Source: an uncultured Verrucomicrobiae bacterium
GTDB taxonomy: Bacteria; Verrucomicrobiota; Verrucomicrobiia; Limisphaerales; Palsa-1400
NCBI GenBank assembly: GCA_963707025.1
Contig: CAVPOM010000017.1
Location: 32,001-96,000 of the forward strand
DNA length: 64,000 nucleotides
Reading direction: 5' to 3'
Shown: one piece after another, positions 7,161 to 37,544 of the stretch
Layout: each line of letters begins with the position of its first letter
Numbering within the stretch: the stretch's first letter is position 1
Position numbers and translations under genes: made by a program
Notes under the pieces: model-generated
The model's input: the letters and a program-made list of their open reading frames with translations, nothing else
Told to the model about the DNA's origin: nothing
Databases searched by the model: none

Positions 7161-8522
7161 ATGTCCCCGATCCTTGCAGACGGCATCAACATCCCAATGG
7201 TATTGGAGGGCGGGATCTTAGTTCTGGCACCAGTAATGCTTTTTGAAATCTTGGTGGAAGCGGCCCTCTTGTCGAAGTTGTGGGGGCGACCTTTTCGTCA
7301 ACTCTGCCGATTCACTTTCCGCGCCAACTGCTGGTCGCTTTTGGCGGGAATCCCGGTTCTGTTTCTGAGTTATTGGATACACGACAGGATGGTGCCGGAG
7401 GATTTGCCGGGTTACTCTGTCAAGGAACCGTTGGCCTTCTCCACCGTGGCCTTGATCTATTTCCTTGCCACCGTAATGGTAGAGGGTGCAACTGCCTTCC
7501 GCTGGCTTCGCCGGAGTGAGACCGCGCTGCCTGCCAACACAACGTGGAAAGGAGTTCTGCTCGCAAACCTGGCCACTTACGCCGTGCTTGCGCCGCTGTT
7601 TTACTACACTTCTCACCCGATCTCCCCGATTCGCGAGTTTGCCTCCAACGCCGCGTGGTCGAGCCATCCGAAAGTAAAGGTCGTATTCATTGACGGCCAG
7701 GATGGACGCCTAAAATCGGTATGTGTGGACGGGTCTGACCGGGAGACGGTTGTGCCGATGAAGGTTAGGGATTATCTGGTTTCAGGGGATTTGAAGACCT
7801 GCCTTTTCCGGGATTCGTTCCGCAATCTTTGCCTTTATCGCCGGGATGCCAGTCAGAGCAATTTGGTCAATCTGGTGTTGGGAACCGAGGAGCGATTTCG
7901 GATGAACCAAGTTGCATTCAGCCCCTCTGGGCGATTCGTGGCTTTTGCCAGCGCGCTGGGGAAGTATGTTGAAGTAATTAACGTCGCGTCTGGCAAAGGG
8001 GTGCGCCAATCGTTGGACGCTCAAGCAATCCGCTCCGGCAACCCTTCCATCGCGTGGTCAAGTGAAGAGAGCCGGCTTATTGTGCGTGGCTTCACCGCCG
8101 ATTCCGCGATCACAATCCAGCCGGACTTCACCCTCACCTACCACCCGATTGCCGGCACCAACGGTTTGGTTGTTTTTGTGTGCTACGGTCACTCTGCGGG
8201 CGATGATTCAGAACAGTCTTATGCTCAAGATTCCTACGGAGACGTTGAGGTGGTGGACTTGGATGCTTATGGCAGGAGCATTCTCTCAGTCCATCGGAAG
8301 AATGAAGCGGAAAAGCCCATCCTATACTTGTCGGTGCCAAAAGCTCGCTATCCCTTGCCCAGGTTTTCTTCGGACGCTGCGTTTCTCGAGGGTGGCCGGG
8401 AATGCCTCTTCGAGGCCAATGGCCGAATCTACCTTTTGGACATCACCGCGAAACGAGTCGGAATGGTGGCAAGCGGGGACGCTTTCATCCTCCTGACCGA
8501 CCGTTATCAGAGCCGGCCTTGA
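7161..8522 (+). CDS. Hypothetical membrane protein with C-terminal TolB/WD40-like beta-propeller
   Basis: 453-aa ORF; about four N-terminal hydrophobic segments; VAFSPSGRFVAF motif; codon style less GC-biased than neighbours. Confidence 0.6.
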   Translation: MSPILADGINIPMVLEGGILVLAPVMLFEILVEAALLSKLWGRPFRQLCRFTFRANCWSLLAGIPVLFLSYWIHDRMVPEDLPGYSVKEPLAFSTVALIYFLATVMVEGATAFRWLRRSETALPANTTWKGVLLANLATYAVLAPLFYYTSHPISPIREFASNAAWSSHPKVKVVFIDGQDGRLKSVCVDGSDRETVVPMKVRDYLVSGDLKTCLFRDSFRNLCLYRRDASQSNLVNLVLGTEERFRMNQVAFSPSGRFVAFASALGKYVEVINVASGKGVRQSLDAQAIRSGNPSIAWSSEESRLIVRGFTADSAITIQPDFTLTYHPIAGTNGLVVFVCYGHSAGDDSEQSYAQDSYGDVEVVDLDAYGRSILSVHRKNEAEKPILYLSVPKARYPLPRFSSDAAFLEGGRECLFEANGRIYLLDITAKRVGMVASGDAFILLTDRYQSRP

Positions 8523-28873: not shown

Positions 28874-31800
28874 TTAACATTTACAACGATTTTTCATCAC
28901 CTTGGCGGGCTTATTTGGGGCAGAACACAACGGCTTGTGGTCATCCCGGAGCAATACACCACCCAGAGCCTTTCCGGTGTGGCTTTGCGGCGACGCCGCC
29001 ACCTGTTCCGGCGTGCCTTGGACCACTATTCGACCGCCTTCCTCGCCCCCTTCCGGTCCCAGATCAACGACCCAATCCGCCGATTTAATCACATCCAAAT
29101 TGTGCTCGATCACCAGTGCCGAATGGCCCGCCCCGACCAGCCGTTGAAAAACCTTGAGCAGCACCCGCACATCATCAAAATGCAATCCCGTCGTCGGCTC
29201 ATCAAATATGAACAGCGCCGGTTTCTCGGCGCCTTTCTCCATCCTCCCTTTTTCATCCTCCGCACCCGCTTCATTGGCGCCGCATCGCGCCAAGTGGCTG
29301 ACCAGTTTCAACCGCTGGCTCTCCCCGCCGGACAAAGTGTTGATAGGCTGGCCCAGCCGCACATAACCCAGCCCGACTTCCTGCAAAAGTCGCAGACTGG
29401 CCGCCGCGCGCGCTGCGTGGCGGGATGGGCCAAAGTCGTTCAACCATTGGATGGCTTCATCCACCGTCGCTTCCAATAAATCGGCGATGTTCCAACGGCG
29501 GTGGCCGGCCGACTCCGCCGTGACTTGGAGAATGTGCGCACGGTAGCGCCGCCCGTTGCAATCCGGGCAACGGACAAACACATCGCTCAGAAACTGCATT
29601 TCGATTTTTTCAAAACCGGCGCCCCGGCAGCGTTCGCACTGGCCCTGCGCGGAATTGAAACTGAAGGCGCTGGCGCTCAAGCCGCGCTGCAGGGCGCCGG
29701 CCGTCCGGGCAAACAACTCGCGAATTTCGTCAAACGCCCCGATATAAACCGCCGGATTGGAGCGCGGCGTCCGGCCCAGCAAAGATTGGTCCACCGCGAC
29801 GACGCGCCCCAGGTGCTGCCATCCTTCCAGCAAAGGGCCGGCTGCTCTGGCCGCACCGGCCTCAGGCGTTTCGCCGGCTTGGTCTTCCGCGGCGCCCGCG
29901 CCGGCCGGTTCCCCGGCCAGCCGTTCCTGCAAGGCTGGCAGCAGCACCTCGCGCACCAGGGTGCTCTTGCCCGAGCCGCTCACCCCGGTCACACAAACCA
30001 GCCGGCCCAGGGGAATTTCCACGGTCACGTCCCGCAAATTATGCAAATTCGCCCCGCGCAAAATCAGTCCGGGCATGGCTGAGGTTCCGCCTGCGCCCCG
30101 CAAAGAAACCGGCCGCCGCGCGGGGATTTCAATCTGCTTTTTCCCCGCCAGGTATTGCCCCGTCAACGACTGCGGCGCGCGCAGAATTTCCGGGTAAGTC
30201 CCTTGAAAAACCACCCGGCCGCCCGAGGCGCCGTGGCCGGGGCCCAGGTCAATGATGTGATCCGCCGCCCGCAAGACACCCGCCTCGTGTTCCACCAGCG
30301 CGACCGTGTTGCCGGCGTCGCGCAACTGCCGCACGATGCGCACCAGCCGGGCGGTGTCGCGCGGATGCAAGCCCACGCTCGGTTCGTCCAGCACAAACAA
30401 AGTGTTGACGAGCCGCGAACCCAGGCAACTGGTCAGGCTGACCCGCTCGGTTTCGCCGCCGGAGAGCGAACGGGTCGAGCGATCCAGGCCCAGGTAACCC
30501 AGCCCCGCGTCCAGCAAAAAGGCCAGCCGGGAACGGACTTCGTGGAGCGCCAGTTGGCGCGAATCGGACGCCTTGGCCCCGGCAGGCCCGCGATCAGCCC
30601 ATCCACAAAGCGCAGGGCCTCCCGCACTGGCAGCCGGTAAAAATCCGCCAGCGTCAGGCCGCCTCCGCCTTCCGGCGCGTGCATCCGGTACAGCAGCGTC
30701 TCCGGTTGAAACCGGGTGCCGTGGCAAGCGGGGCAGGGATTATACTTGCGATAGCGGGCCAGCAGCACGCGGACGTGCATTTTATAGGCCTTGGATTCCA
30801 GCCAGCGAAAATACCCTTTGACGCCATACCAGGCGCGCGGCCACTCATGGGCCTTGTCCTGGCCATAGCCCGGGTCGCCCTCCACCACCCAGTCCTGCCA
30901 TTTTTTGGGCAAATCCCCGAAAGCCACTTCCACCGGCACTTGGCGCAGCTTGGCGAACTTCAACAAATCCGCCTGGCATTCCAGCCCGGTCTTGGTCTGC
31001 CACGGTTTAACCGCCCCGCCCGCCAAAGTTTTGGAGCGGTCTGGAATGGCGGCGTTGTAATCTATGGCGATGACCCGGCCAAAACCTTTGCAGGCCGGGC
31101 ACGCCCCCGTCGGATGATTGAAACTGAACAAAGCCGGCGACGGCTCGCGATACTCCAGGTCGCACGCCGCGCAGTGCCGGCGGTTGGAAAAATGTTTCAC
31201 CTCCGCAATCCCTCCCTTCTCCGCCAGCAGGTGAACGGCCAGTTTGCCTTTGCCAAAATGATACGCCTGCTCGCACCCCTCGACAAACCGCGCCCGGTTG
31301 GACTCTTTCAATTTCACCCGGTCCTGAATCACCGTCAAGCGGGCGGGCGGCGAACCTTGCAGGCGCGCCAGCGCCTGGTCCAGCGCCACCACTGCCCCGT
31401 CCAGCAGCAGCCGCTGATAGCCCTGGCGCCCGACCAGCGCCAGCGATTCTTCCAGCGAGAATTTCCCGCTCAATTCCAGCGTGAACGTCACCAGCGTTTC
31501 CGCCTCCGCCGCCTGCGCGCGCAGGACCGGCCAGATTTTCTGGGGCGGTTCCTGCTCCACCGGCCGGCCGCAACCGCGGCAATGCAAGCGCGCCAGTTGC
31601 GCCCAGAAAACCTTCGTGTAATCGGCGATCTCCGTCATCGTCCCGACGGTCGAGCGGGTGGACTTGACGCTGTTGCGCTGCTCGATGGCGATGGCCGGCG
31701 GAATCCCCTCGATGCGGCGCGCCTGCGGCTTGTCCATCCGGTCCAAAAACTGCCGCGCGTAGGGCGAAAAAGTTTCGATATAACGCCGCTGCCCCTCCGC

Positions 31801-31953
31801 AAAAAGCGTTTCAAAGGCCAGCGAACTTTTTCCCGACCCGCTCAACCCCGAGATGACCACCAATTTCCGCAAGGGCACGTCCAGGTCAATATTCTTCAAA
31901 TTATTTTGCCGCACCCCCCGGAGGCGGATGCAGTCCGGCGCTTTTTTCCTCAT
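28874..31953 (-). CDS. uvrA: Excinuclease ABC subunit A (frameshift near 30600)
   Basis: GLSGSGKSSLAF, GVSGSGKST, LSGGE x2, zinc-finger CxxC pairs, DEPTTGLH. Confidence 0.92.
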
Positions 31954-31962
31954 GCAGCCCAA

Positions 31963-31990: not shown

Positions 31991-32111
31991 ACCGCAACCA
32001 CGGCCAATCCAGCCCAATCCTCATCGGGGAAATTTTGGGATGCGGATTGAAATAATGATGTATAATGGGAAGGAAAAGCGCTACCATCAAACCAACGGCT
32101 CGAATTGTAAT

Positions 32112-32330
32112 ATGACAGCAATCGCCAAGAAGATTGAAGAAGAGATCCAGCATCTGCCATTGGAGGACATGCTGGCTCTCCATGAGCATCTCATCATGTC
32201 CATCCATGAACGCGAAGAAGCCCGGAGTCTTGATCCGGCTTTCAGGAACGACATTCAGCGGCGCATAGACGAAATTGATTCCGGTAAAGTTCAAGGCGTG
32301 GATGCGCTGGAGGCACTCAAAAAGATGTAA
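32112..32330 (+). CDS. Addiction-module antitoxin component
   Basis: 72-aa acidic ORF (LPLED..DPAFRNDIQRRIDEIDSGKV) directly abutting a RelE/ParE toxin. Confidence 0.75.
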   Translation: MTAIAKKIEEEIQHLPLEDMLALHEHLIMSIHEREEARSLDPAFRNDIQRRIDEIDSGKVQGVDALEALKKM

Positions 32331-32575
32331 ATGCCGCGCCCAGGCAAACCAGTTCAACTGCACCCGGAAGCGCGAGCCGAGTTGCAGGAATCGGTCAATT
32401 TTTACCGGAACCGCGGCGGTGAACACAGGGTGGAGCGGTTCAAACAGCGAGTGGCGGACGGCCTGAATATCATCGCGTCCCAACCGGAAGGCCATCCGCC
32501 CGAACCGGGTTTGGTGGGTGTCCAGAGACTGCGGCTCAAGCAATTCCCTTTTTCGGTAGTGGGCTACTTTGAAAT

Positions 32576-32974
32576 TCAGCCATGAAGGCCACATTTGCAA
32601 ACCGGGCATATTCGCACGTCTTTTCCCGCCAGCGGGTTTTTGCATTGGGGGCAGACATATTTGACGGCCAGTTTACTGCCCCAATAAATCAATCCCAAAC
32701 CAAGGAATATCGGAACAATGAGCCAAAACCCAAAAATAATCACCAGAACGCCTACGCCTTGAATCAGGCACCCGCCCCCGGCCATTTCGATCTTTTTTTC
32801 GATTTGATATTCCGGGGCGGTTTGTGGCGTGAAATTTGGCGGGGATTGAGCCTCATCGGCCCACAAGAGGATGTTTTGGCCGCAATGCGGGCATGGTGAT
32901 TCCTGCCCTTTTGCCTCACTTGGAAACTCAATCCAACCACCACAACCCCCGCACTTCATTTTTAGGTAATCCAT
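32576..32974 (-). CDS. Zinc-ribbon membrane protein (transposon cargo)
   Basis: Four CxxC pairs (CGGC, CPHC, CPQC, CPVC) flanking two hydrophobic segments. Confidence 0.7.
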   Translation of the reverse strand: MDYLKMKCGGCGGWIEFPSEAKGQESPCPHCGQNILLWADEAQSPPNFTPQTAPEYQIEKKIEMAGGGCLIQGVGVLVIIFGFWLIVPIFLGLGLIYWGSKLAVKYVCPQCKNPLAGKDVRICPVCKCGLHG

Positions 32975-33136
32975 ATTAGCATGGTTGACATCGGGCGTTT
33001 TGTGAGATGAAAACCCCTAAACCCTTAATGTCTTTGCACTTAAAAAAAGGAAAAACGGTGCTTGTGATTTGCAACAAACGAACCGCCTCAGTTTCCCTTT
33101 CTGAAAGAATGGTTATTGCCTTCATTTGTGGTTTGG

Positions 33137-33328
33137 CTAGTTCCGTATCAAAGTCAGTATCTTTACGACCTTCCGTTTCGGCAGCCCGGTTTGGAGCTTG
33201 GTATCTCGCAGGGCGATTAAAACCTGCTGATATGCCTCGGCATAACTCAATTGGCGGTAAGCCTTAATATGGAAGGTGATATTGTTTTCGTCGTCTTCAA
33301 AAATAGTCAATATAGGCGGCTCAATCAT
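33137..33328 (-). CDS. 63-aa hypothetical protein coupled to the transposase
   Basis: ATG overlaps the transposase TGA (ATGA); MIEPPILTIFEDDENNITFHIKAY.. Confidence 0.5.
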   Translation of the reverse strand: MIEPPILTIFEDDENNITFHIKAYRQLSYAEAYQQVLIALRDTKLQTGLPKRKVVKILTLIRN

Positions 33329-34158
33329 GTGCCAATTAAAGCCACAACCTCTTCCAAAGTCCAGACGTGATCGGTCAAACCGGCTTCCATTGCCGGGGTG
33401 ACGCGCAAGGTTGTGTGAATCCGGCAAAAATTGTAGTGCATGAAGTGGATTGCGGCATGGTGCTTGTGGTTTTCGAGCTTTTTTGAAAAAGCATTCGTAA
33501 GCCGGGTGAACCGCCGATTGCCCATGCGGACGCTCAAGTTTTGCCGTTCAATGTGGCTAGTGGAAACCAAACGGCTGTCTGGATTGCCGCTAATGCGGTT
33601 TTTCCGTGCCCCGATGCAAACGGGCGGGGAATAACGGACTTCTGTGGCCGGGCCGTGTTCGTTGCCGTATAGTTTTACGAGTTGCGCGTAGTCAATCTCA
33701 GAGCCAAAGGCATCCTCCACGGCTTGCACGTAGCATTTCAGCCCGTCTGAGGTCAATTGGACGCGGCTGGCGAGCCTTCCCGCAAGGTCATTGATAAACG
33801 TGTAAGCATCTGTGGCATCCCGCTTCCCGCAATGGAAGCACGGAATCAGCTTTGTGTCGGAATCCATCGCAATCCAAGTCCATGTGTCGCCAAGCCCCTC
33901 CGCGCCTTTCAAATGTTCCGGCACATTGGCTTGCTTGCATCGCGTAAAGCTCCAAAGCTCGTCAACCTGCAAAACCTTGCACGGCAGGCTCCGCATGATT
34001 TTGTCCATGAAAGCGGCACAGGCCGTGCCAGCGGAAACCAGCATTCTTTCCACGGTCTTTTTGGCCGCCCCGGTCAGGCGGGTTGTGGAGCGCATGGAGC
34101 ATCCCTCCACCAGGCAATTGAGGATTTGAGCGCGTTTATCGGTTGCGAGTATATTCAT
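33325..34158 (-). CDS. IS1-family DDE transposase (single ORF with N-terminal HTH)
   Basis: LVEGCSMRSTTRLTG HTH; QVDELWSF, TSDG, STSHIERQN, RRFTRLTNAFSKK. Confidence 0.88.
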   Translation of the reverse strand: MNILATDKRAQILNCLVEGCSMRSTTRLTGAAKKTVERMLVSAGTACAAFMDKIMRSLPCKVLQVDELWSFTRCKQANVPEHLKGAEGLGDTWTWIAMDSDTKLIPCFHCGKRDATDAYTFINDLAGRLASRVQLTSDGLKCYVQAVEDAFGSEIDYAQLVKLYGNEHGPATEVRYSPPVCIGARKNRISGNPDSRLVSTSHIERQNLSVRMGNRRFTRLTNAFSKKLENHKHHAAIHFMHYNFCRIHTTLRVTPAMEAGLTDHVWTLEEVVALIGT

Positions 34159-34178
34159 ATTTTTCTTTCGTTGGATTT

Positions 34179-34207
34179 ACCATACGTGAACCGCTTTACG
34201 TATGCAA
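34179..34207 (-). promoter_or_regulatory. Transposase promoter TTGCAT-N17-TATGGT overlapped by a palindrome
   Basis: CATACGTGAACCGCTTTACGTATG dyad spans the spacer. Confidence 0.5.
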
Positions 34208-34285
34208 CTGGTTTATTTGAGTTTATCTTCACCATTTTAATCGTGTTGGCACGGCTTATGCGACAACCGCTTTACATATTCACGC

Positions 34286-34313
34286 TTGACATTATGCGAA
34301 AAGCGGTTATCGT
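34286..34313 (+). promoter_or_regulatory. Promoter TTGACA-N16-TATCGT for the divergent small ORF
   Basis: ATG at 34321 lies 7 nt after the -10 box (leaderless-like geometry). Confidence 0.5.
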
Positions 34314-34320
34314 GGAGCGT

Positions 34321-34533
34321 ATGAATAGAACAGCCCAAAAATTAGGGCGCATGGCACGCGGCGTTAAAAAGACACTGACGCCAGCCCAACGCCAGGCCGC
34401 CGCTGAACGCGCACGCGGCCTTGCCGCAATACGATGGCGCGGTCATGTCAAAAATACTACCAGAAAAACCTTGCATTCTCACATCCGGCGTGGCAAGATT
34501 GCGCCAGTAAATGGTGGAACCAGTGGGAGTTGA
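34321..34533 (+). CDS. Small basic protein (LGR..LTPAQRQAAAERARGLAAIRW)
   Basis: Has its own promoter; motif resembles small basic proteins seen beside IS1/IS1595-type transposases; 3' end antisense to the tRNA-like gene. Confidence 0.6.
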   Translation: MNRTAQKLGRMARGVKKTLTPAQRQAAAERARGLAAIRWRGHVKNTTRKTLHSHIRRGKIAPVNGGTSGS

Positions 34534-34607
34534 ACCCTCACTGCTCACACAGTGCCCCTCGCGGTCTAAACCCGCATTACGGCATCCGGCCAACGGGGAC
34601 TGGCCCC
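34512..34607 (-). tRNA. Non-canonical tRNA-like gene (9/3 acceptor/T-stem, long variable arm, UUA anticodon loop)
   Basis: GGGGCCAGT pairs with ACTGGTTCC, followed by ACCA; T-arm GGG-TTCAACT-CCC; anticodon arm TGCGG-GTTTAGA-CCGCG; variable arm CACTG-TGTGAG-CAGTG; D-arm atypical. Confidence 0.7.
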
Positions 34608-34736
34608 ACTATGTTACGCCTACGGCGGTCAGGTTGCCTTACGAGCATTATCACCTGACCGCCGTTGCCCTATGTCTGGCGGTCACGTACGGCGTTTTGA
34701 TTTACGTGAGCGCTATCGTTTTAGTTTCATAATCAC

Positions 34737-34805
34737 AAAAAGAAAACCGCCTCAGTTCCAACTCGAAAAACCCAGGCGGGGCATTTTGGAACCAAAGCGG
34801 TTTCT
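34737..34805 (-). terminator. Long hairpin with U-tract in the leader of the tRNA-like gene
   Basis: Minus strand AGAAACCGCTTTGGTTCCAA..TTGGAACTGAGGCGGTTTTCTTTTT. Confidence 0.45.
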
Positions 34806-35000
34806 AGATCAGTTCGCCTGCAAACGGTTTCGAGGCCGTGGGTTTTGACACCCAAAATCAAAGAACAAATTCACCTACACCCGTCGTTTATCAGCGGAGG
34901 CGGGGCAGTCAAGGGTTTTTTATTAAAAACCGAGAGCATCATAAACCGCACCTGGATTTGTGCAAGCACTTATTTTCGTAACATATTGATGTAACAGGTG

Positions 35001-35519
35001 TTACGTATGCTTGATGAGTCTTTTTTTGTGCTTGGTGAGTCCCGTTTGGATGCTTGGTGAGGGCGATTTTATGCTTGGTGAGTGTTTGTTGATGCTAGAT
35101 GAGAATTTTTTGGGTGTTTTTCCCTCTTTTGAAATTTTCTTCAAAACTGGTTTTTTGGTGTGTTTCCACCGTGCTGCCGCCGCAATCTTTGCCCTTCTAT
35201 GGCGTCTGAGTCGTGACCACTGAAAGAATATCCACTCCATATTAAGATATTCATCATTGGTAAACCCGTGTTCGCTGTAATGCTTTACGATTGTTTCCGC
35301 TGTCCAATTTCCATCCCTAAACTTTGGGTTTGTCATCTCTATGATTGCCTCGTGAGGTGGAAGTGTTGGAGGAGTTAAAAGGCGCTGCTTCCACCAGGGA
35401 AGAAAATCCAGAAAGAATTTCATCCGTCGTTTGAGTGTGCGAGCACTTCCGATCTGACCGCCCACAATTCGCCTCAGAAATTCATTGAGGCTCACCGGGA
35501 AGATCAAAGGCTTAGGCAC
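35001..35519 (-). CDS. 172-aa basic hypothetical protein (transposon cargo)
   Basis: Contains RRAKIAAAARW and a Lys/Ser/Pro-rich tail. Confidence 0.6.
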   Translation of the reverse strand: MPKPLIFPVSLNEFLRRIVGGQIGSARTLKRRMKFFLDFLPWWKQRLLTPPTLPPHEAIIEMTNPKFRDGNWTAETIVKHYSEHGFTNDEYLNMEWIFFQWSRLRRHRRAKIAAAARWKHTKKPVLKKISKEGKTPKKFSSSINKHSPSIKSPSPSIQTGLTKHKKRLIKHT

Positions 35520-35562
35520 TCCGAAATAAAGCCCAAATCCCGCCCATGAAGAAAGCCCGAAA

Positions 35563-35697
35563 TTACCGCTTTTTCTTGGGTTTTTTGACGGGCGGGGCGA
35601 TAATTGGCTGGTTGCTCAGGGCGATCACGTCCTGCATGATGGAGTGCATCCGCATGTTGGCGTCTGCCGGGCGACGTTTTTTGGCTTGTTTCGTCAT
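35563..35697 (-). CDS. 44-aa basic peptide MTKQAKKRRPADANMRMHSIMQDVIALSNQPIIAPPVKKPKKKR
   Basis: Read manually (shorter than any ORF in the track); co-oriented with the other cargo just inside the right TIR. Confidence 0.5.
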   Translation of the reverse strand: MTKQAKKRRPADANMRMHSIMQDVIALSNQPIIAPPVKKPKKKR

Positions 35698-36068
35698 GCC
35701 GCCAGCTTACCATGCCAGGGCGGGCGGGCGAAAAGAAAATTCAAAGTAGCCCACTACCCCTTTTTCCCTTATCTTTGTCAACCGAACTGAGTATGTTTGG
35801 GTGGTGGCCGTCGCTCATGGAAGCCAGGCGTCCGGGCTATTGGAAAAATCGAATTGCGGAAGTCGGCCCATGACACAGCGGCCAACGGCACCTTTGGAGT
35901 GAGTCGCCTTTGACGGCGCTAAAACATCCGCCCATAGATGGCATCTTCCGGATTATTCCAGAATTCGAAGGCCGGTTCTGCCAACCGGGACCAGGCCAAA
36001 TCGTCCAGCGAGATCTTCAGATGCCGCGGGAGAATTCGGAGCAACTCCACCTGCTCTTTCACATCCAG

Positions 36069-37544
36069 TGAGGTGGACCCCATCCTTTAGACCACGGAGC
36101 GCGGAGAATAAGATAGACTCTGGAGGTCCGCTGTCATTTGTATTTTTGTTTGTCTGTTGTTCATTCCGCGCTTCCAAACCCTTTCGAAAGAGAGAACGAG
36201 CCGCGCCTGGCACCGCCCGTCCTCCCTCTCCGTTTTCTTAGGGTTTCCAACCTTACCGCCGCAGGCGGTCTGATTTCAAGTTTTTCCGGCCGGCCGAGCC
36301 CTCCTTGGGCTGCATCGCTTCCCATCGGGCCGGTTGGGCTCCGTAGGCCCCGGGATCAGAATACACGGCCGCGGGCGTCGCATAGTGCAAAGCCGCGTGC
36401 GGACGCAACCGGTTGTAATCCTCAAACCAGCGCGCCAGCCCGCGCCCGGCCTCGATCCCGTCCAGGTAATCTTGCAGATATATGTCCTCATGCTTGACGC
36501 TCCGCCACAACCGCTCGATAAACCGGTTGTCCATCCACCGCCCCCGGCCATCCATGCTCACGTCCACCCCCGCCGATTCCACCGCGTCAATATACAGCGG
36601 CGAAGTGAACTGCGACCCCTGGTCGGTGTTGGCGATCAGCGGGGCCTTCCGCCCGCTCTGCAGCGCCGCTTCCCAGGCGTCCACGCAGAAGGCGCTCTCC
36701 AACGTGTTGCTCAAGCGCCACGCCAGCACATACCGGCTCCACCAATCCATCACCGCCACCAGATACATAAACCCCTGTGCCATCGGCACATAGGTGATGT
36801 CCGCGCACCAAGCCTGATCGGGCCCGGTGATCTCCAACTCGCCCAACAGATACGGATAGATCTGATGGCCCGGCCCCGGCAGGCTGGTCCGGGGTTTGCG
36901 GTAGATGGCCTCGATGCCCATGACCCGCAACAGCCGCACCACCCGCTTGCGATTGACTTCCCAGCCCTCCCGGCCCAACAGCACCCGCAACTTGCGGCTG
37001 CCATAGACCGGATGGTCCAAGTGCAACTGGTCCAAACGCCGCATCAGCGCCAGATTCTCCGGCGTCTCGGGGCACGGTTGGTAATAGTAACTGCTCCGGC
37101 ATAAATCCAGCAGGTCGCACTGATGCCGCACGCTCACCTGCGCATCCGGGCCGACCAACTCCGCCAGGCTCTTTAAAGGCCCAGTTGTTTGGATTTTTTT
37201 TTCAGCCAGTCCAGGTCCACCGTCAACTGCCCGATCTTCTGGTGCAATTGCCCGATCAACTCCTCCTGGTCTGCGCTGCCCGCATGCCCCGCCTCAAACA
37301 GGTCGGGCAACCGGTCGCGAATCGTCGCTTTCCATTGCGTGACCTGGGTCGGATGCACCGCGTACTCTCGCGCCAGCTGCGCGACCGTCTTAAGCCCCAC
37401 CAGGGCTTCGAATCCCACTTTGGCCTTGAAGGCCGCACTGTGCCGCTTCCGTTTTGTTTTCATCAGTCTGCTTTCTCTCATTTCCAGCAGACCAACAAAA
37501 GTCTATCTTCTTCAGCAGTGGTCTAGTTTTTGGGGACCCCCTCA
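36069..37544 (-). mobile_element. IS3-family insertion sequence (1476 bp)
   Basis: TG..CA ends; imperfect TIRs TGAGGTGGACCCCATCCTTTAGACCAC / TGAGGGGGTCCCCAAAAACTAGACCAC; 3-bp TSD CAG at 36066-36068 and 37545-37547. Confidence 0.92.
36253..37463 (-). CDS. IS3 transposase OrfAB (orfA 37173-37463; orfB in the -1 frame)
   Basis: orfA HTH; A9 slippery run at 37194-37202 with an open -1 frame into orfB; WCADITY, NTDQGSQF, DNRFIERLWRSVK. Confidence 0.92.

What the first reader, a model, noticed from the sequence alone, without database searches (positions are those of the whole stretch)
34512..34607. Non-canonical 9/3 tRNA-like gene with a stop-reading anticodon inside an IS1-family transposon
Seen: the minus strand reads GGGGCCAGT CCCCGTTGGCCGGATGCCGTAA TGCGG GTTTAGA CCGCG AGGGG CACTG TGTGAG CAGTG A GGG TTCAACT CCC ACTGGTTCC ACCA (96 nt). 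It has a 9-bp acceptor stem stacked on a 3-bp T-stem (12 bp total instead of 7/5), a canonical-looking T-loop, discriminator A, encoded CCA, G3.U70, a long variable arm and a 7-nt loop centred on UUA. Known: G3.U70 is the AlaRS identity element; 8/4 and 9/3 allo-tRNAs are a described rare class; a UUA anticodon would pair with UAA (and UAG by wobble). Inference: a transposon-borne nonsense suppressor, tRNA decoy or regulatory RNA. Caveats: the D-arm is not canonical, position 32 is G, CCCC/GGGG allows an alternative fold, and a one-base register shift would give a UAG (Leu) anticodon.
Basis: partly seen in the sequence, partly recalled or inferred. Interest (0 to 1): 0.92.

Follow-up and report, generated by a model that had tools for sequence, protein, structure and literature searches.

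The report
Transposon-borne alanine-type stop-reading tRNA look-alike
A jumping gene of the IS1 family in this soil bacterium carries a conserved, oddly folded tRNA-like gene that looks built to accept alanine and to face the UAA stop codon; this kind of RNA is already published, but this variant of its fold and its fixed place inside a transposon are not.

Summary
The 96-nt sequence is exactly as quoted. It is a real, conserved RNA. Twelve distinct homologues were aligned: this window, three other genomes of the same family and eight metagenome contigs. They keep the fold with 96.6% of cells paired, against 37-48% in slid controls. Eight pairs show changes on both sides, which 0 of 500 shuffles reached.

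The acceptor/T split is 9/3. G3.U70, A73 and the loop UUUA (anticodon UUA) are invariant in 12 of 12.

It is not a canonical tRNA. A covarying 4-bp helix (positions 10-13 with 50-53) replaces the D-stem. The anticodon-like stem has 4 bp. Position 32 is G and position 37 is C or G. ARAGORN finds nothing and no Rfam score reaches a gathering threshold.

It lies inside a 3,204-bp IS1-family element, window 32555-35758, with 22-nt terminal inverted repeats and an 8-bp target duplication. Related elements bounded by the same kind of repeats carry the same RNA. Others carry a second, 73-nt tRNA-like type with the same alanine-type acceptor and a UUA loop.

The closest known kind is the (9/3) allo-tRNA-UUA with G3:U70 of Mukai et al. 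2017. Function is untested. My best guess is an alanine-charged tRNA mimic or weak UAA reader that serves the transposon.

Earlier unchecked notes of this scan report similar transposon-borne allo-tRNA-like genes on other DNA.

The parts
34512..34607 (-). The tRNA-like RNA gene, 96 nt with the encoded CCA. RNA position p corresponds to window coordinate 34608-p. Acceptor: p1-9 with p84-92. Helix P2: p10-13 with p50-53. GG-loop hairpin A: p16-28. Anticodon-like hairpin B: p33-47, loop GUUUAGA, with UUA at 34569-34567. Variable-arm-like hairpin C: p54-69. T arm: p71-83. Discriminator A at 34515. CCA at 34514-34512.
   Evidence: Sequence; MFE fold; covariation in 12 homologues; covariance model R1 scores this copy 93.6 bits.
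34622..34665 (-). Upstream hairpin H2: a 13-bp uninterrupted GC-rich stem with an 18-nt loop, 15 nt before RNA position 1.
   Evidence: (pair I3). Eleven of 12 copies have a stem of 12-15 bp at this place with different arm sequences; 0-1 of 100 mononucleotide shuffles reach that length.
34679..34713 (-). Upstream hairpin H1, imperfect.
   Evidence: Per-sequence folds of the 140 nt upstream show a hairpin at this place in most of the 12 copies (clearly in 9). No covariation was counted because the alignment was not good enough.
34713..34730 (-). Start of the conserved RNA module. The block ATGAA(A/G)(C/T)TA... could begin a mini-ORF (MKLKR* in this copy).
   Evidence: Alignments. The mini-ORF was read by eye only and not tested.
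34321..34533 (+). Antisense 70-aa ORF that overlaps the RNA's 3' end by 22 nt. It occupies the slot where related elements have a 62-64-aa NikA-like ribbon-helix-helix (RHH) gene lying tail-to-tail with the RNA.
   Evidence: The window ORF has no family match (LPD37, 15.8 bits) and is not conserved in L103. For the RHH ORFs of relatives, Pfam PF21983 gives L110 29.1 bits (cut-off 27), L111 22.9 and L134 23.6.
34365..34395 (-). Terminator-like hairpin plus T-run between the RNA and the transposase.
   Evidence: Consensus scan only.
33325..34158 (-). IS1-family DDE transposase, 277 aa, single ORF with an N-terminal HTH.
   Evidence: NCBIfam transpos_IS1 49.4 bits (cut-off 100). Pfam DDE_Tnp_IS1 19.3 bits here, and 27.0 and 33.7 bits in the G018 and G029 orthologues (cut-off 24.1). 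At least 582 relatives in genome contigs.
35001..35519 (-). 172-aa ORF with a very basic C-terminal tail; transposon cargo or backbone.
   Evidence: No match in Pfam, NCBIfam or PADLOC. A homologue lies at the same place in L103, and a 147-aa basic ORF lies at the same place in C14.
32576..32974 (-). 132-aa ORF with two zinc-ribbon-like CxxC pairs flanking a hydrophobic stretch; the last gene before the right TIR.
   Evidence: Translation; 87% DNA identity to L103 3849-4226.
32555..32576 (.). Terminal inverted repeat, one end of the transposon: GGTAGTGGGCTACTTTGAAATT.
   Evidence: pair I1: 22 nt, 95% complementary. It coincides with the homology boundary to L103.
35737..35758 (.). Terminal inverted repeat, the other end of the transposon.
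   Evidence: pair I1. It coincides with the homology boundaries to C14 and L103.
32547..32554 (.). 8-bp target-site duplication, CCTTTTTC, left copy.
35759..35766 (.). 8-bp target-site duplication, CCTTTTTC, right copy.

Best explanation
The stretch is a genuine structured tRNA-like RNA gene. It is a derived relative of the published (9/3) allo-tRNA-UUA with alanine identity. It is carried as an internal module of a cargo-carrying IS1-family transposon (window 32555-35758).

Shown:
- The fold and its conservation.
- An invariant alanine-tRNA-type acceptor end (G1-C72, G2-C71, G3.U70, A73).
- A canonical T-loop.
- A GG-containing small hairpin where a D-loop would sit.
- An invariant UUUA in a 7-nt loop.
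- Its position between terminal inverted repeats with a target duplication.
- Persistence of the RNA in copies whose transposase is truncated or gone.

Inferred:
- It is transcribed on the minus strand. The G.U pairs work only on this strand.
- It is cut out by RNase P and 3' processing enzymes.
- It is charged with alanine by AlaRS.

Most likely mechanism (about 40%): it acts for the transposon as an alanylated tRNA mimic that reads UAA weakly or not at all, and so has a regulatory role rather than that of a general suppressor. The reasons are that the anticodon arm and the core depart from decoding tRNAs and that UAA is a common host stop codon.

What selection keeps is the Ala acceptor end and the loop UUA(C/G)A. 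A structurally different 73-nt tRNA-like gene in sister transposons keeps the same two features.

The confidence of 0.5 is a blend: about 0.85 that it is a real allo-tRNA-type RNA gene carried inside the transposon, and about 0.4 for the mechanism named here.
For: Sequence and fold:
- Exact sequence.
- Covariation in 12 homologues: 96.6% of cells paired against 37-48% in slid controls, 8 pairs with double changes, 0 of 500 shuffles as high, G3.U70 in 12 of 12, P2 paired in 100% of cells with two covarying pairs.
- In 3 copies the GG-loop hairpin is shifted by one base; these score as unpaired in the alignment but pair in their own register.

Transposon:
- TIRs and TSD.
- The same TIR motif brackets C14, L103 and G008, and forms inverted pairs in 15 of 80 broader transposase loci.
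- Clade-A elements in G029, G018 and L134 have their own GGTAGTG/GGTAGTC-type TIRs that enclose the RNA and the transposase.
- A transposase or its remnant lies next to the RNA in 9 of 11 informative loci. It is full-length in 4 and truncated, deleted or inverted in 5. The RNA is intact in all 12.
- The G008 element has TIRs and the RNA but no transposase.

Second type:
- It has a GGGTGCG...CGCATCC-A acceptor (G3.U70 in 8 of 9) and the loop CCUUACA.
- One copy has CCUUAGA, the same C/G toggle at position 37.
- It is found in 10 of 31 family genomes, including this one.
- One copy reaches Rfam's tRNA threshold (29.9 bits against 29).
- ARAGORN at 90% thresholds calls it tRNA-Stop(tta).

Literature and distribution:
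- Mukai et al. 2017 (PMC5389517; Results and Discussion read nearly whole, part 1 and section 16, plus the supplementary table) describe (9/3) allo-tRNAs with UUA, G3:U70 and A73. Their CUA-anticodon variants inserted Ala in E. coli.
- The distribution is patchy: 4 of 31 family genomes and 0 of 150 others of the phylum.
Against: - No transcript evidence. Only fragments of relatives' upstream regions appear in contigs of two metatranscriptomes.
- ARAGORN at default thresholds finds nothing.
- Rfam: tRNA-Sec 17.6 bits (gathering 47), tmRNA 12 bits (gathering 47), and no hit to the tRNA model.
- The single-sequence folding energy is not exceptional (z = -1.06).
- Charging by AlaRS is inferred from identity elements only.
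- The invariance of UUA in two RNA types argues that the loop does read something. A real, weak suppressor is therefore not much less likely than a non-decoding mimic.
- No in-frame TAA was found that the element would need read through.
- CCA is encoded in only 4 of 12 copies.
Confidence: 0.5

Rival explanations
1. It is a working ochre suppressor tRNA. It is charged with alanine, delivered by EF-Tu, and decodes UAA (and perhaps UAG) on the ribosome. It either acts as a general low-level suppressor or reads the element's own UAA codons, for example the stop of the adjacent RHH repressor gene.
For: - UUA is invariant in 12 of 12 copies of this type.
- In the second type UUA stands at the aligned loop position in 8 of 9 copies.
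- The loop has 7 nt, with U at position 33 in this type.
- The Ala identity set, the 12-bp acceptor/T branch, the canonical T-loop and the GG loop are present.
- Related 9/3 species worked in E. coli translation once given a CUA anticodon (PMC5389517).
- The RHH gene that lies tail-to-tail with the RNA ends in TAA in all 9 copies I read by eye (from the outputs).
- Earlier unchecked scan notes report transposon tRNAs matched to codons of their own transposase.
Against: - G32 in 12 of 12 copies, against 1 of 74 host tRNAs.
- C37 in 8 of 12 copies, against a pyrimidine at 37 in 2 of 74 host tRNAs.
- C33 in the second type.
- A 4-bp anticodon-like stem whose fifth pair is not conserved.
- The D-stem is replaced by P2, which encloses two hairpins.
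- TAA ends 958 of 3317 long ORFs.
- The read-through extensions of the RHH gene are not conserved (read by eye).
- No in-frame TAA was found upstream of the transposase.
- Allo-tRNA-UAU species with altered junctions were inactive in E. coli (PMC5389517, section 16).
Confidence: 0.3
2. It works in cis as an RNA processing or 3'-end element of the transposon. As a tRNA-shaped structure it would be cut by RNase P and RNase Z. This would separate read-through transcripts from the element's own messages. On the other strand it would also end or stabilise the convergent RHH transcript.
For: - It has a fixed place and orientation: upstream of the transposase and tail-to-tail with the RHH gene, 5-10 nt from that gene's stop codon.
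- Conserved hairpins lie upstream of it.
- A terminator-like site follows it.
Against: - Processing needs only an acceptor/T minihelix. It explains neither the invariant G3.U70 and A73 nor the invariant UUA loop in two unrelated bodies.
- The many G.U pairs mean the opposite strand would fold poorly.
- The RNA is kept in elements without a transposase or an intact RHH gene.
Confidence: 0.1
3. It is a decaying passenger: a former allo-tRNA gene that hitch-hikes in the cargo region and has no present function.
For: - It has a non-canonical anticodon loop and core.
- Distribution is patchy and single-copy.
- The C14 sister element has a different, singleton tRNA-like unit at the same place.
- Mukai et al. 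describe allo-tRNA pseudogenes at a transposon-related ORF.
Against: - Compensatory changes in five of the six helices and 100% pairing of the acceptor and P2 across copies as little as about 80% identical.
- The RNA is intact where the neighbouring transposase is broken.
- The identity elements are invariant.
Confidence: 0.08
4. It is an integration-site remnant, or a miniature tmRNA-like tRNA domain.
For: - The acceptor and T-loop resemble tmRNA. Rfam's tmRNA model aligns its two ends to the 96 nt (12 bits).
- G3.U70 and the encoded CCA fit.
Against: - The host tmRNA 3' end is not matched beyond the T-loop core.
- Both halves are present and covary.
- There is no reading frame or tag.
- It lies in the middle of a TIR-bounded element, not at a junction.
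Confidence: 0.02

Closest known systems
(9/3) allo-tRNA with anticodon UUA, G3:U70 and A73 (Mukai et al., Nucleic Acids Res 2017, PMC5389517; sequences in the supplementary table)
   Same: - 9-bp acceptor and 3-bp T stem, 12 bp in all.
- Long variable hairpin.
- G3.U70 with A73.
- 7-nt loop with UUA.
- Soil and peat metagenome origin.
- By eye, the published sequences share the segment around the anticodon stem and the AGG(G)ACGCUG start of the variable arm.
   Different: - The published species have a Sec-like D-arm (5-bp stem, tetraloop), a 5-6-bp anticodon stem and the loop CUUUAAA (C32, A37).
- This RNA has a 4-bp hairpin with the pentaloop CGGAU, the extra covarying helix P2, a 4-bp anticodon-like stem, G32 and C/G37.
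- Four core strings of this subfamily gave 0 hits in the published table.
- I did not put the published sequences through any tool, so the comparison is by inspection only.
Allo-tRNA-UAU group with 'five-stem-junction' structures (same paper; review by Krahn et al. 2020, PMC7609411, passages read)
   Same: - Altered junctions.
- Doubtful translation activity.
[quoted passage not shown]
   Different: - Different anticodon (UAU) and mostly Ser identity.
- The transposon link is only a suggestion in the paper. Here the TIRs, the TSD and the backbone position are shown.
- Their figures are not held, so I could not compare the junctions.
tRNA-Ala and the tRNA-like domain of tmRNA
   Same: - GGGGC... 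acceptor with G3.U70, A73 and CCA.
- UUCRACU T-loop.
- Presumably substrates of AlaRS.
   Different: - No 7/5 split, no D-stem, and no GC-type Ala anticodon.
- No mRNA-like part and no pseudoknots.
- Rfam tmRNA gives 12 bits against a gathering score of 47.
IS1-family insertion sequences, single-ORF and cargo-carrying members (ISfinder grouping and the end consensus GGnnnTG are recalled, not from a call)
   Same: - DDE transposase with weak IS1 profile matches.
- TIRs that start GGTAGTG.
- 8-bp target duplication.
   Different: - The elements are 2.2-4.5 kb and carry passenger genes.
- A tRNA-like gene and a NikA-like RHH gene lie between the TIRs.
- The transposase scores below NCBIfam's IS1 cut-off (49.4 against 100).

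Membership tests
allo-tRNA (9/3) | 12-bp acceptor branch split 9/3 | tested here: met
   Nine acceptor pairs and 3 T-stem pairs are paired in 100% of cells in 12 sequences. A 7/5 reading is impossible in the 9 copies that lack the linker base.
allo-tRNA (9/3) | Long variable arm | tested here: met
   A 5-6-bp hairpin at p54-69, 95% of cells paired, two covarying pairs.
allo-tRNA (9/3) | Sec-like D-arm (long stem, tetraloop) and a longer anticodon stem (PMC5389517, section 13) | tested here: not met
   The D-position hairpin has a 4-bp stem and a 5-nt loop. It is enclosed, together with the anticodon-like hairpin, by the extra helix P2. The anticodon-like stem has 4 invariant bp.
allo-tRNA (9/3) | [quoted passage not shown] | tested here: not met
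   RF01852 gives 17.6 bits against a gathering score of 47, E = 0.25 on 141 nt.
allo-tRNA (9/3) | Activity in translation | not testable with these tools
   Needs a reporter assay.
canonical elongator tRNA / suppressor tRNA | Cloverleaf recognised by tRNA finders; Y32, U33, R37 | tested here: not met
   ARAGORN finds no gene and there is no Rfam tRNA hit. Position 32 is G in 12 of 12 copies and position 37 is C in 8 of 12. In host tRNAs, G32 occurs in 1 of 74 and a pyrimidine at 37 in 2 of 74. At 80% thresholds ARAGORN of 12 copies tRNA-Stop(tta), but noise is high there: 14 calls in upstream regions of non-positive loci and 20 in downstream control regions.
alanine acceptor identity (AlaRS substrate) | G3.U70, with A73 and G2-C71 as minor elements (established knowledge; cited in PMC5389517) | tested here: met
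   All are invariant in 12 of 12 copies. Charging itself was not tested.
tmRNA | tRNA-like domain plus a tag reading frame and pseudoknots | tested here: not met
   The RNA has only 96 nt. RF00023 gives 12 bits against 47. The host has its own tmRNA elsewhere.
IS1-family transposon | DDE transposase of the IS1 type | tested here: inconclusive
   NCBIfam transpos_IS1 gives 49.4 bits against a cut-off of 100. Pfam DDE_Tnp_IS1 gives 19.3 bits here, and 27.0 and 33.7 bits in the G018 and G029 orthologues (cut-off 24.1).
IS1-family transposon | Terminal inverted repeats and a target-site duplication | tested here: met
   22-nt TIRs (21 of 22 complementary) at 32555-32576 and 35737-35758. 8-bp TSD CCTTTTTC. 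The segment is absent at this site in same-genus genomes G003 and G002.

The most novel reading that the evidence does not exclude
The transposon family encodes its own alanine-charged, UAA-facing adaptor as a switch for its own expression. One version: the RNA reads through the invariant UAA stop of the adjacent RHH repressor gene, or a stop in the short leader frame upstream, so that the level or charging of the RNA sets when the transposase is made. This would be a mobile element that controls itself by private recoding of a stop codon, with a tRNA whose core is built on a different junction plan.
Probability: 0.12. Interest if true: 0.85.

Novelty: new variant of a known kind. Interest (0 to 1): 0.6.

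Why it matters
Allo-tRNAs were described in 2017 mostly from metagenomes. Their natural role is open, and a link to transposable elements was only suspected.

Here the link is concrete. The RNA sits at a fixed place between the inverted repeats of IS1-family cargo transposons, next to a small RHH regulator gene. It survives when the transposase decays. A second RNA with a different body but the same alanine acceptor end and UUA loop occupies the same slot.

This gives a defined, testable system (one 3.2-kb element) for asking what a stop-codon-facing alanine tRNA look-alike does for a mobile element.

It also shows a tRNA-like core in which a helix between positions 10-13 and the region after the anticodon arm replaces the D-stem. 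That is of interest for tRNA engineering, since 9/3 allo-tRNAs are already used as chassis (PMC7590224; search listing and abstract only).

By unchecked earlier notes, the host is a Verrucomicrobial genome. That phylum is not among those listed for allo-tRNAs in the two papers I read.

Tried and rejected
Inverted-repeat searches that looked too near:
- Searches close to the RNA or the transposase ORF found nothing convincing. I provisionally concluded that there were no TIRs.
- That conclusion was wrong. The TIRs lie 0.8-1.2 kb away and were found once the whole segment was searched.

Tree of transposases:
- This is a quick tree; the careful search did not finish. It covers 80 rows: 74 of the 80 broader loci (6 were dropped for length or truncation) plus 6 extra rows.
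- The RNA-linked transposases fall into two separated clades. I first read this as repeated independent association or as insertion next to the RNA.
- The shared TIR-bounded architecture makes inheritance of a common backbone with cargo exchange the simpler reading.

Other tests:
- att-scar test: rejected.
- Generic scan for Ala-type acceptor helices upstream of 76 broader transposases: 5 hits, against 1 and 4 in the controls, so no enrichment.
- R1 model on 83 other loci and the window: no other member.
- Viral contigs and plasmids: no match.
- The C14-type unit has no homologue in 30 family genomes.
- Whole-module consensus folding predicted only the tRNA-like part, because the hairpin arms were misaligned.
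- In-frame TAA upstream of the transposase: the frame holds several stops in the window and G018, and none at all in L134; in no case is it interrupted only by a TAA.
- The simple sigma-70 scan did not call the TTGACA block upstream of the type-2 RNA as a promoter.

RNA-seq:
- Two metatranscriptome runs held only small shares (0.06) of the words.
- Contigs 90-95% alike touch 34623-34664 and 34733-34837. None covers the RNA, so there is no evidence either way on expression.

Reinterpretations:
- The 'RE-like fragment' at 35546-35749 turned out to be a frame across the transposon end, not part of a restriction gene.
- The conserved ATTTACG and AGCAAG blocks downstream of the RNA are the 3' part of an antisense RHH gene, not RNA motifs.

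Literature searches that found nothing on point.
Full report
**Observation**

ARAGORN finds no tRNA or tmRNA in the window, and no Rfam family reaches its gathering score. With relaxed thresholds only two models span the element. tmRNA scores 12 bits with its two ends only. tRNA-Sec scores 17.6 bits against a gathering score of 47. The MFE fold shows a 9-bp acceptor, a CCCC/GGGG helix, three hairpins and a 3-bp T stem, but the energy is ordinary (z = -1.06). The case therefore rests on comparison with other copies.

**Homologues and structure**

BLAST over 60 relatives found full-length copies in three other genera of the same family: G008, G018 and G029. A pattern scan of metagenome contigs gave 13 loci, nine of them distinct; one of these duplicates the G008 copy, and for G029 the metagenome contig L102 was used instead of the genome copy. 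Twelve distinct sequences were aligned.
- For the structure I named, 95.4% of cells pair on the MAFFT alignment and 96.6% on the model-guided alignment. Slid controls give 37-49%.
- Eight pairs have changes on both sides, reached by 0 of 500 shuffles. RNAalifold predicts the same fold.
- The acceptor and the helix I call P2 (positions 10-13 with 50-53) pair in 100% of cells. Pair 10:53 is U-A in 7 and C-G in 5.
- G3.U70, A73, the GCGG/CCGC stem and the loop G-U-U-U-A-(G/C)-A are invariant apart from the one toggling base.
- The hairpin in the D-loop position carries a GG in its loop. It is shifted by one base in three copies, which the alignments score as unpaired.
- G8-C and U9-A never vary. 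A 7/5 reading fails in the nine copies that lack the linker base.
- The G.U pairs fix the coding strand.

**How tRNA-like it is**

The acceptor end is that of tRNA-Ala or tmRNA, and the T-loop is canonical. The anticodon arm is not.
- The stem has 4 bp.
- Position 32 is G in 12 of 12 copies. Among 74 ARAGORN tRNAs of this genome, G32 occurs once.
- Position 37 is C in 8 of 12 copies. A pyrimidine at 37 occurs twice among the 74 host tRNAs.
- TAA ends 958 of 3317 long ORFs, so an efficient ochre suppressor would be costly.
- The host tmRNA 3' end shares only the T-loop core and TCCACCA with the element. The att-scar idea fails.

**Literature**

Mukai et al. 2017 (PMC5389517) was read as follows: Results and Discussion, part 1 and section 16, and part 20 of the supplementary table. 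Krahn et al. 2020 (PMC7609411) was read in passages.
- Mukai et al. describe 8/4 and 9/3 allo-tRNAs, including 9/3 species with anticodon UUA, G3:U70 and A73. Their CUA variants inserted Ala in E. coli.
- The published 9/3 UUA sequences have a Sec-like D-arm and the loop CUUUAAA.
- Four core strings of the present subfamily are absent from their table.
- I compared the published sequences by eye only.

**Genomic setting**

Relative to same-genus genomes G003 and G002, window segment ~31999-35882 is missing at this site. A separate IS3 copy, 36069-37544, is one of about 45 full-length matches in this genome.

My first searches for inverted repeats near the RNA or the transposase failed. Earlier unchecked notes of this scan describe IS1-type cargo transposons with a built-in odd tRNA and an RHH repressor. 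Prompted by them, I searched the whole segment.
- It has 22-nt TIRs (21 of 22 complementary), GGTAGTGGGCTACTTTGAAATT, at 32555-32576 and 35737-35758.
- It has an 8-bp duplication, CCTTTTTC.
- These ends coincide with the homology boundaries to the paralogue on contig C14 and to metagenome locus L103.

In the transposase's orientation the 3,204-bp element holds, in order:
- a TIR;
- a 172-aa basic ORF;
- hairpins H1 and H2;
- the RNA;
- an antisense small ORF;
- the IS1-family transposase;
- a 132-aa zinc-ribbon/membrane ORF;
- a TIR.

The TIR motif occurs as inverted pairs in 15 of 80 broader transposase loci (elements of 1.8-4.5 kb). It also brackets C14, L103 and the G008 locus. The G008 element is about 2.2 kb, has a TSD matching at 6 of 8 positions, and keeps the RNA but has no transposase. 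The more distant elements have their own TIRs that enclose the RNA and the transposase:
- G029: 22 nt, perfect;
- G018: 20 nt;
- L134: 17 nt.

**Linkage**

A transposase or its remnant lies beside the RNA in 9 of 11 informative loci. It is full-length in 4. In the other 5 it is N-terminal only, internally deleted or inverted. L111 ends 278 nt after the RNA and is uninformative. G008 and L109 have none. The RNA is intact in all 12.

The blocks conserved just downstream of the RNA (ATTTACG, AGCAAG...) are the 3' part of a 62-64-aa antisense ORF whose TAA stop lies 5-10 nt from the RNA's 3' end.
- It is a NikA-like ribbon-helix-helix protein. Pfam gives L110 29.1 bits against a cut-off of 27; two others score just below.
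- It is transcribed divergently from the transposase.
- In this window that slot holds a different, unconserved 70-aa ORF.

Upstream, H2 is a stem of 12-15 bp in 11 of 12 copies, with differing arms.

**A second RNA in the same slot**

G029's second transposon copy carries a 73-nt tRNA-like gene.
- It has a 7/5 split, the acceptor GGGTGCG...CGCATCC-A with G3.U70, and the loop CCUUACA.
- ARAGORN at 90% thresholds calls it tRNA-Stop(tta).
- Rfam's tRNA model gives 29.9 bits against 29.
- Relatives occur in 10 of 31 family genomes, including this one at C12:349503-349695.
- One copy has CCUUAGA, the same C/G toggle.
- The consensus fold keeps the acceptor (G3.U70 in 8 of 9), a 5-bp stem and an odd 6-bp T arm with a 5-nt loop.
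- The transposase follows in 3 of 12 loci.

The C14 sister element has yet another unit: a 7/5 split, G3.U70, A73 and CCA, but no UUA. It has no homologue in 30 family genomes.

**Distribution**

The 9/3 type is in 4 of 31 genomes of the family, in 4 of 10 genera and single-copy in each. It was not found in 150 other genomes of the phylum, in viral contigs or in plasmids. That patchiness fits a mobile element.

In a quick tree (careful search unfinished) the RNA-linked transposases form two clades.

**Reading**

Shown:
- a conserved structured RNA with alanine-type identity elements and a UUA loop;
- its place as a fixed internal part of TIR-bounded IS1-family cargo transposons.

Inferred:
- transcription, processing and alanylation.

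Open:
- whether it decodes UAA.

Two different bodies keep the Ala end and UUA(C/G)A. This argues that these two features are what is selected. The un-tRNA-like positions 32, 33 and 37, the short stem and the rebuilt core argue against efficient decoding. I found no in-frame TAA that the element would need read through. Expression data are lacking.

I file it as a new variant of a known kind. The transposon architecture was not found in print by my searches, and the scan has seen the same theme before on other DNA.

Noticed in passing
G000 contig C12:349503-349695 (locus L136): This genome also carries a copy of the second, 73-nt tRNA-like type (G3.U70 acceptor, loop GCUUACA). No transposase lies within 1.5 kb downstream, and the copy sits between IS3 copies.
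   Followed up: partly
G000 contig C14:279242-282258 (loci L003, L010): A paralogous 3.0-kb element with the same TIR motif and a transposase about 80% identical in protein (79% in DNA). In the RNA slot it has a different 70-nt 7/5 tRNA-like unit (G3.U70, A73, CCA, 10-nt loop, no UUA). It is inserted at the 5' end of a type IIG restriction-methyltransferase gene (PADLOC PDLC03604).
   Followed up: partly
window 36069-37544: An IS3-family element (HTH_Tnp_1 ORF at 37173-37481, rve integrase ORF at 36253-37158). The genome holds 7 further full-length copies at 100% identity and about 36 at 79%. It is absent at this site in G003.
   Followed up: partly
window 34713-34730 (-) and the same place in 8 of 12 homologues: The conserved module begins with ATGAA(A/G)(C/T)TA. 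This could start a short leader frame (MKL...) of 5-20 codons that ends at varying stop codons. It was read by eye only.
   Followed up: no
G000 contigs C2:97-112 kb and C8:72-82 kb: Two dense arrays of 11 and 13 tRNA genes. They include a 92-nt tRNA-Ile(tat) and units with odd anticodon loops. Earlier scan notes describe these arrays.
   Followed up: no
window 28874-31962 (-): UvrA-like sequence split into two overlapping ORFs (617 aa and 509 aa), suggesting a frameshift or an unusual paralogue.
   Followed up: no
loci L019-L098, about 10-100 nt before the transposase start: At least 8 of the 62 loci scanned have a palindrome built on ATGCTTGAC...GTCAAGCAT that overlaps a TTGACA hexamer. It is probably the operator and promoter of the transposase.
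   Followed up: no
L069 2276-2370 and L084 2249-2322: Two distant members (Nitrospira and Smithella MAG contigs) carry other irregular tRNA genes at the same place. One is a 95-nt tRNA with anticodon CGC and a long arm; the other is a 74-nt tRNA with GCU. Each is preceded by a long hairpin. In L069 the tRNA lies inside the TIR pair.
   Followed up: partly
L022 4812-4830 and 4893-4968: In this locus the element's right TIR lies about 60 nt from an ordinary tRNA-Thr gene. The element may have inserted beside a host tRNA gene.
   Followed up: no
window 35883-35932 and 35933-36069, compared with G003 C129:8771-8820 and 8306-8442: G003 has 328 nt between these two blocks that are missing in the window. 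This is a second, independent difference at this variable spot.
   Followed up: no
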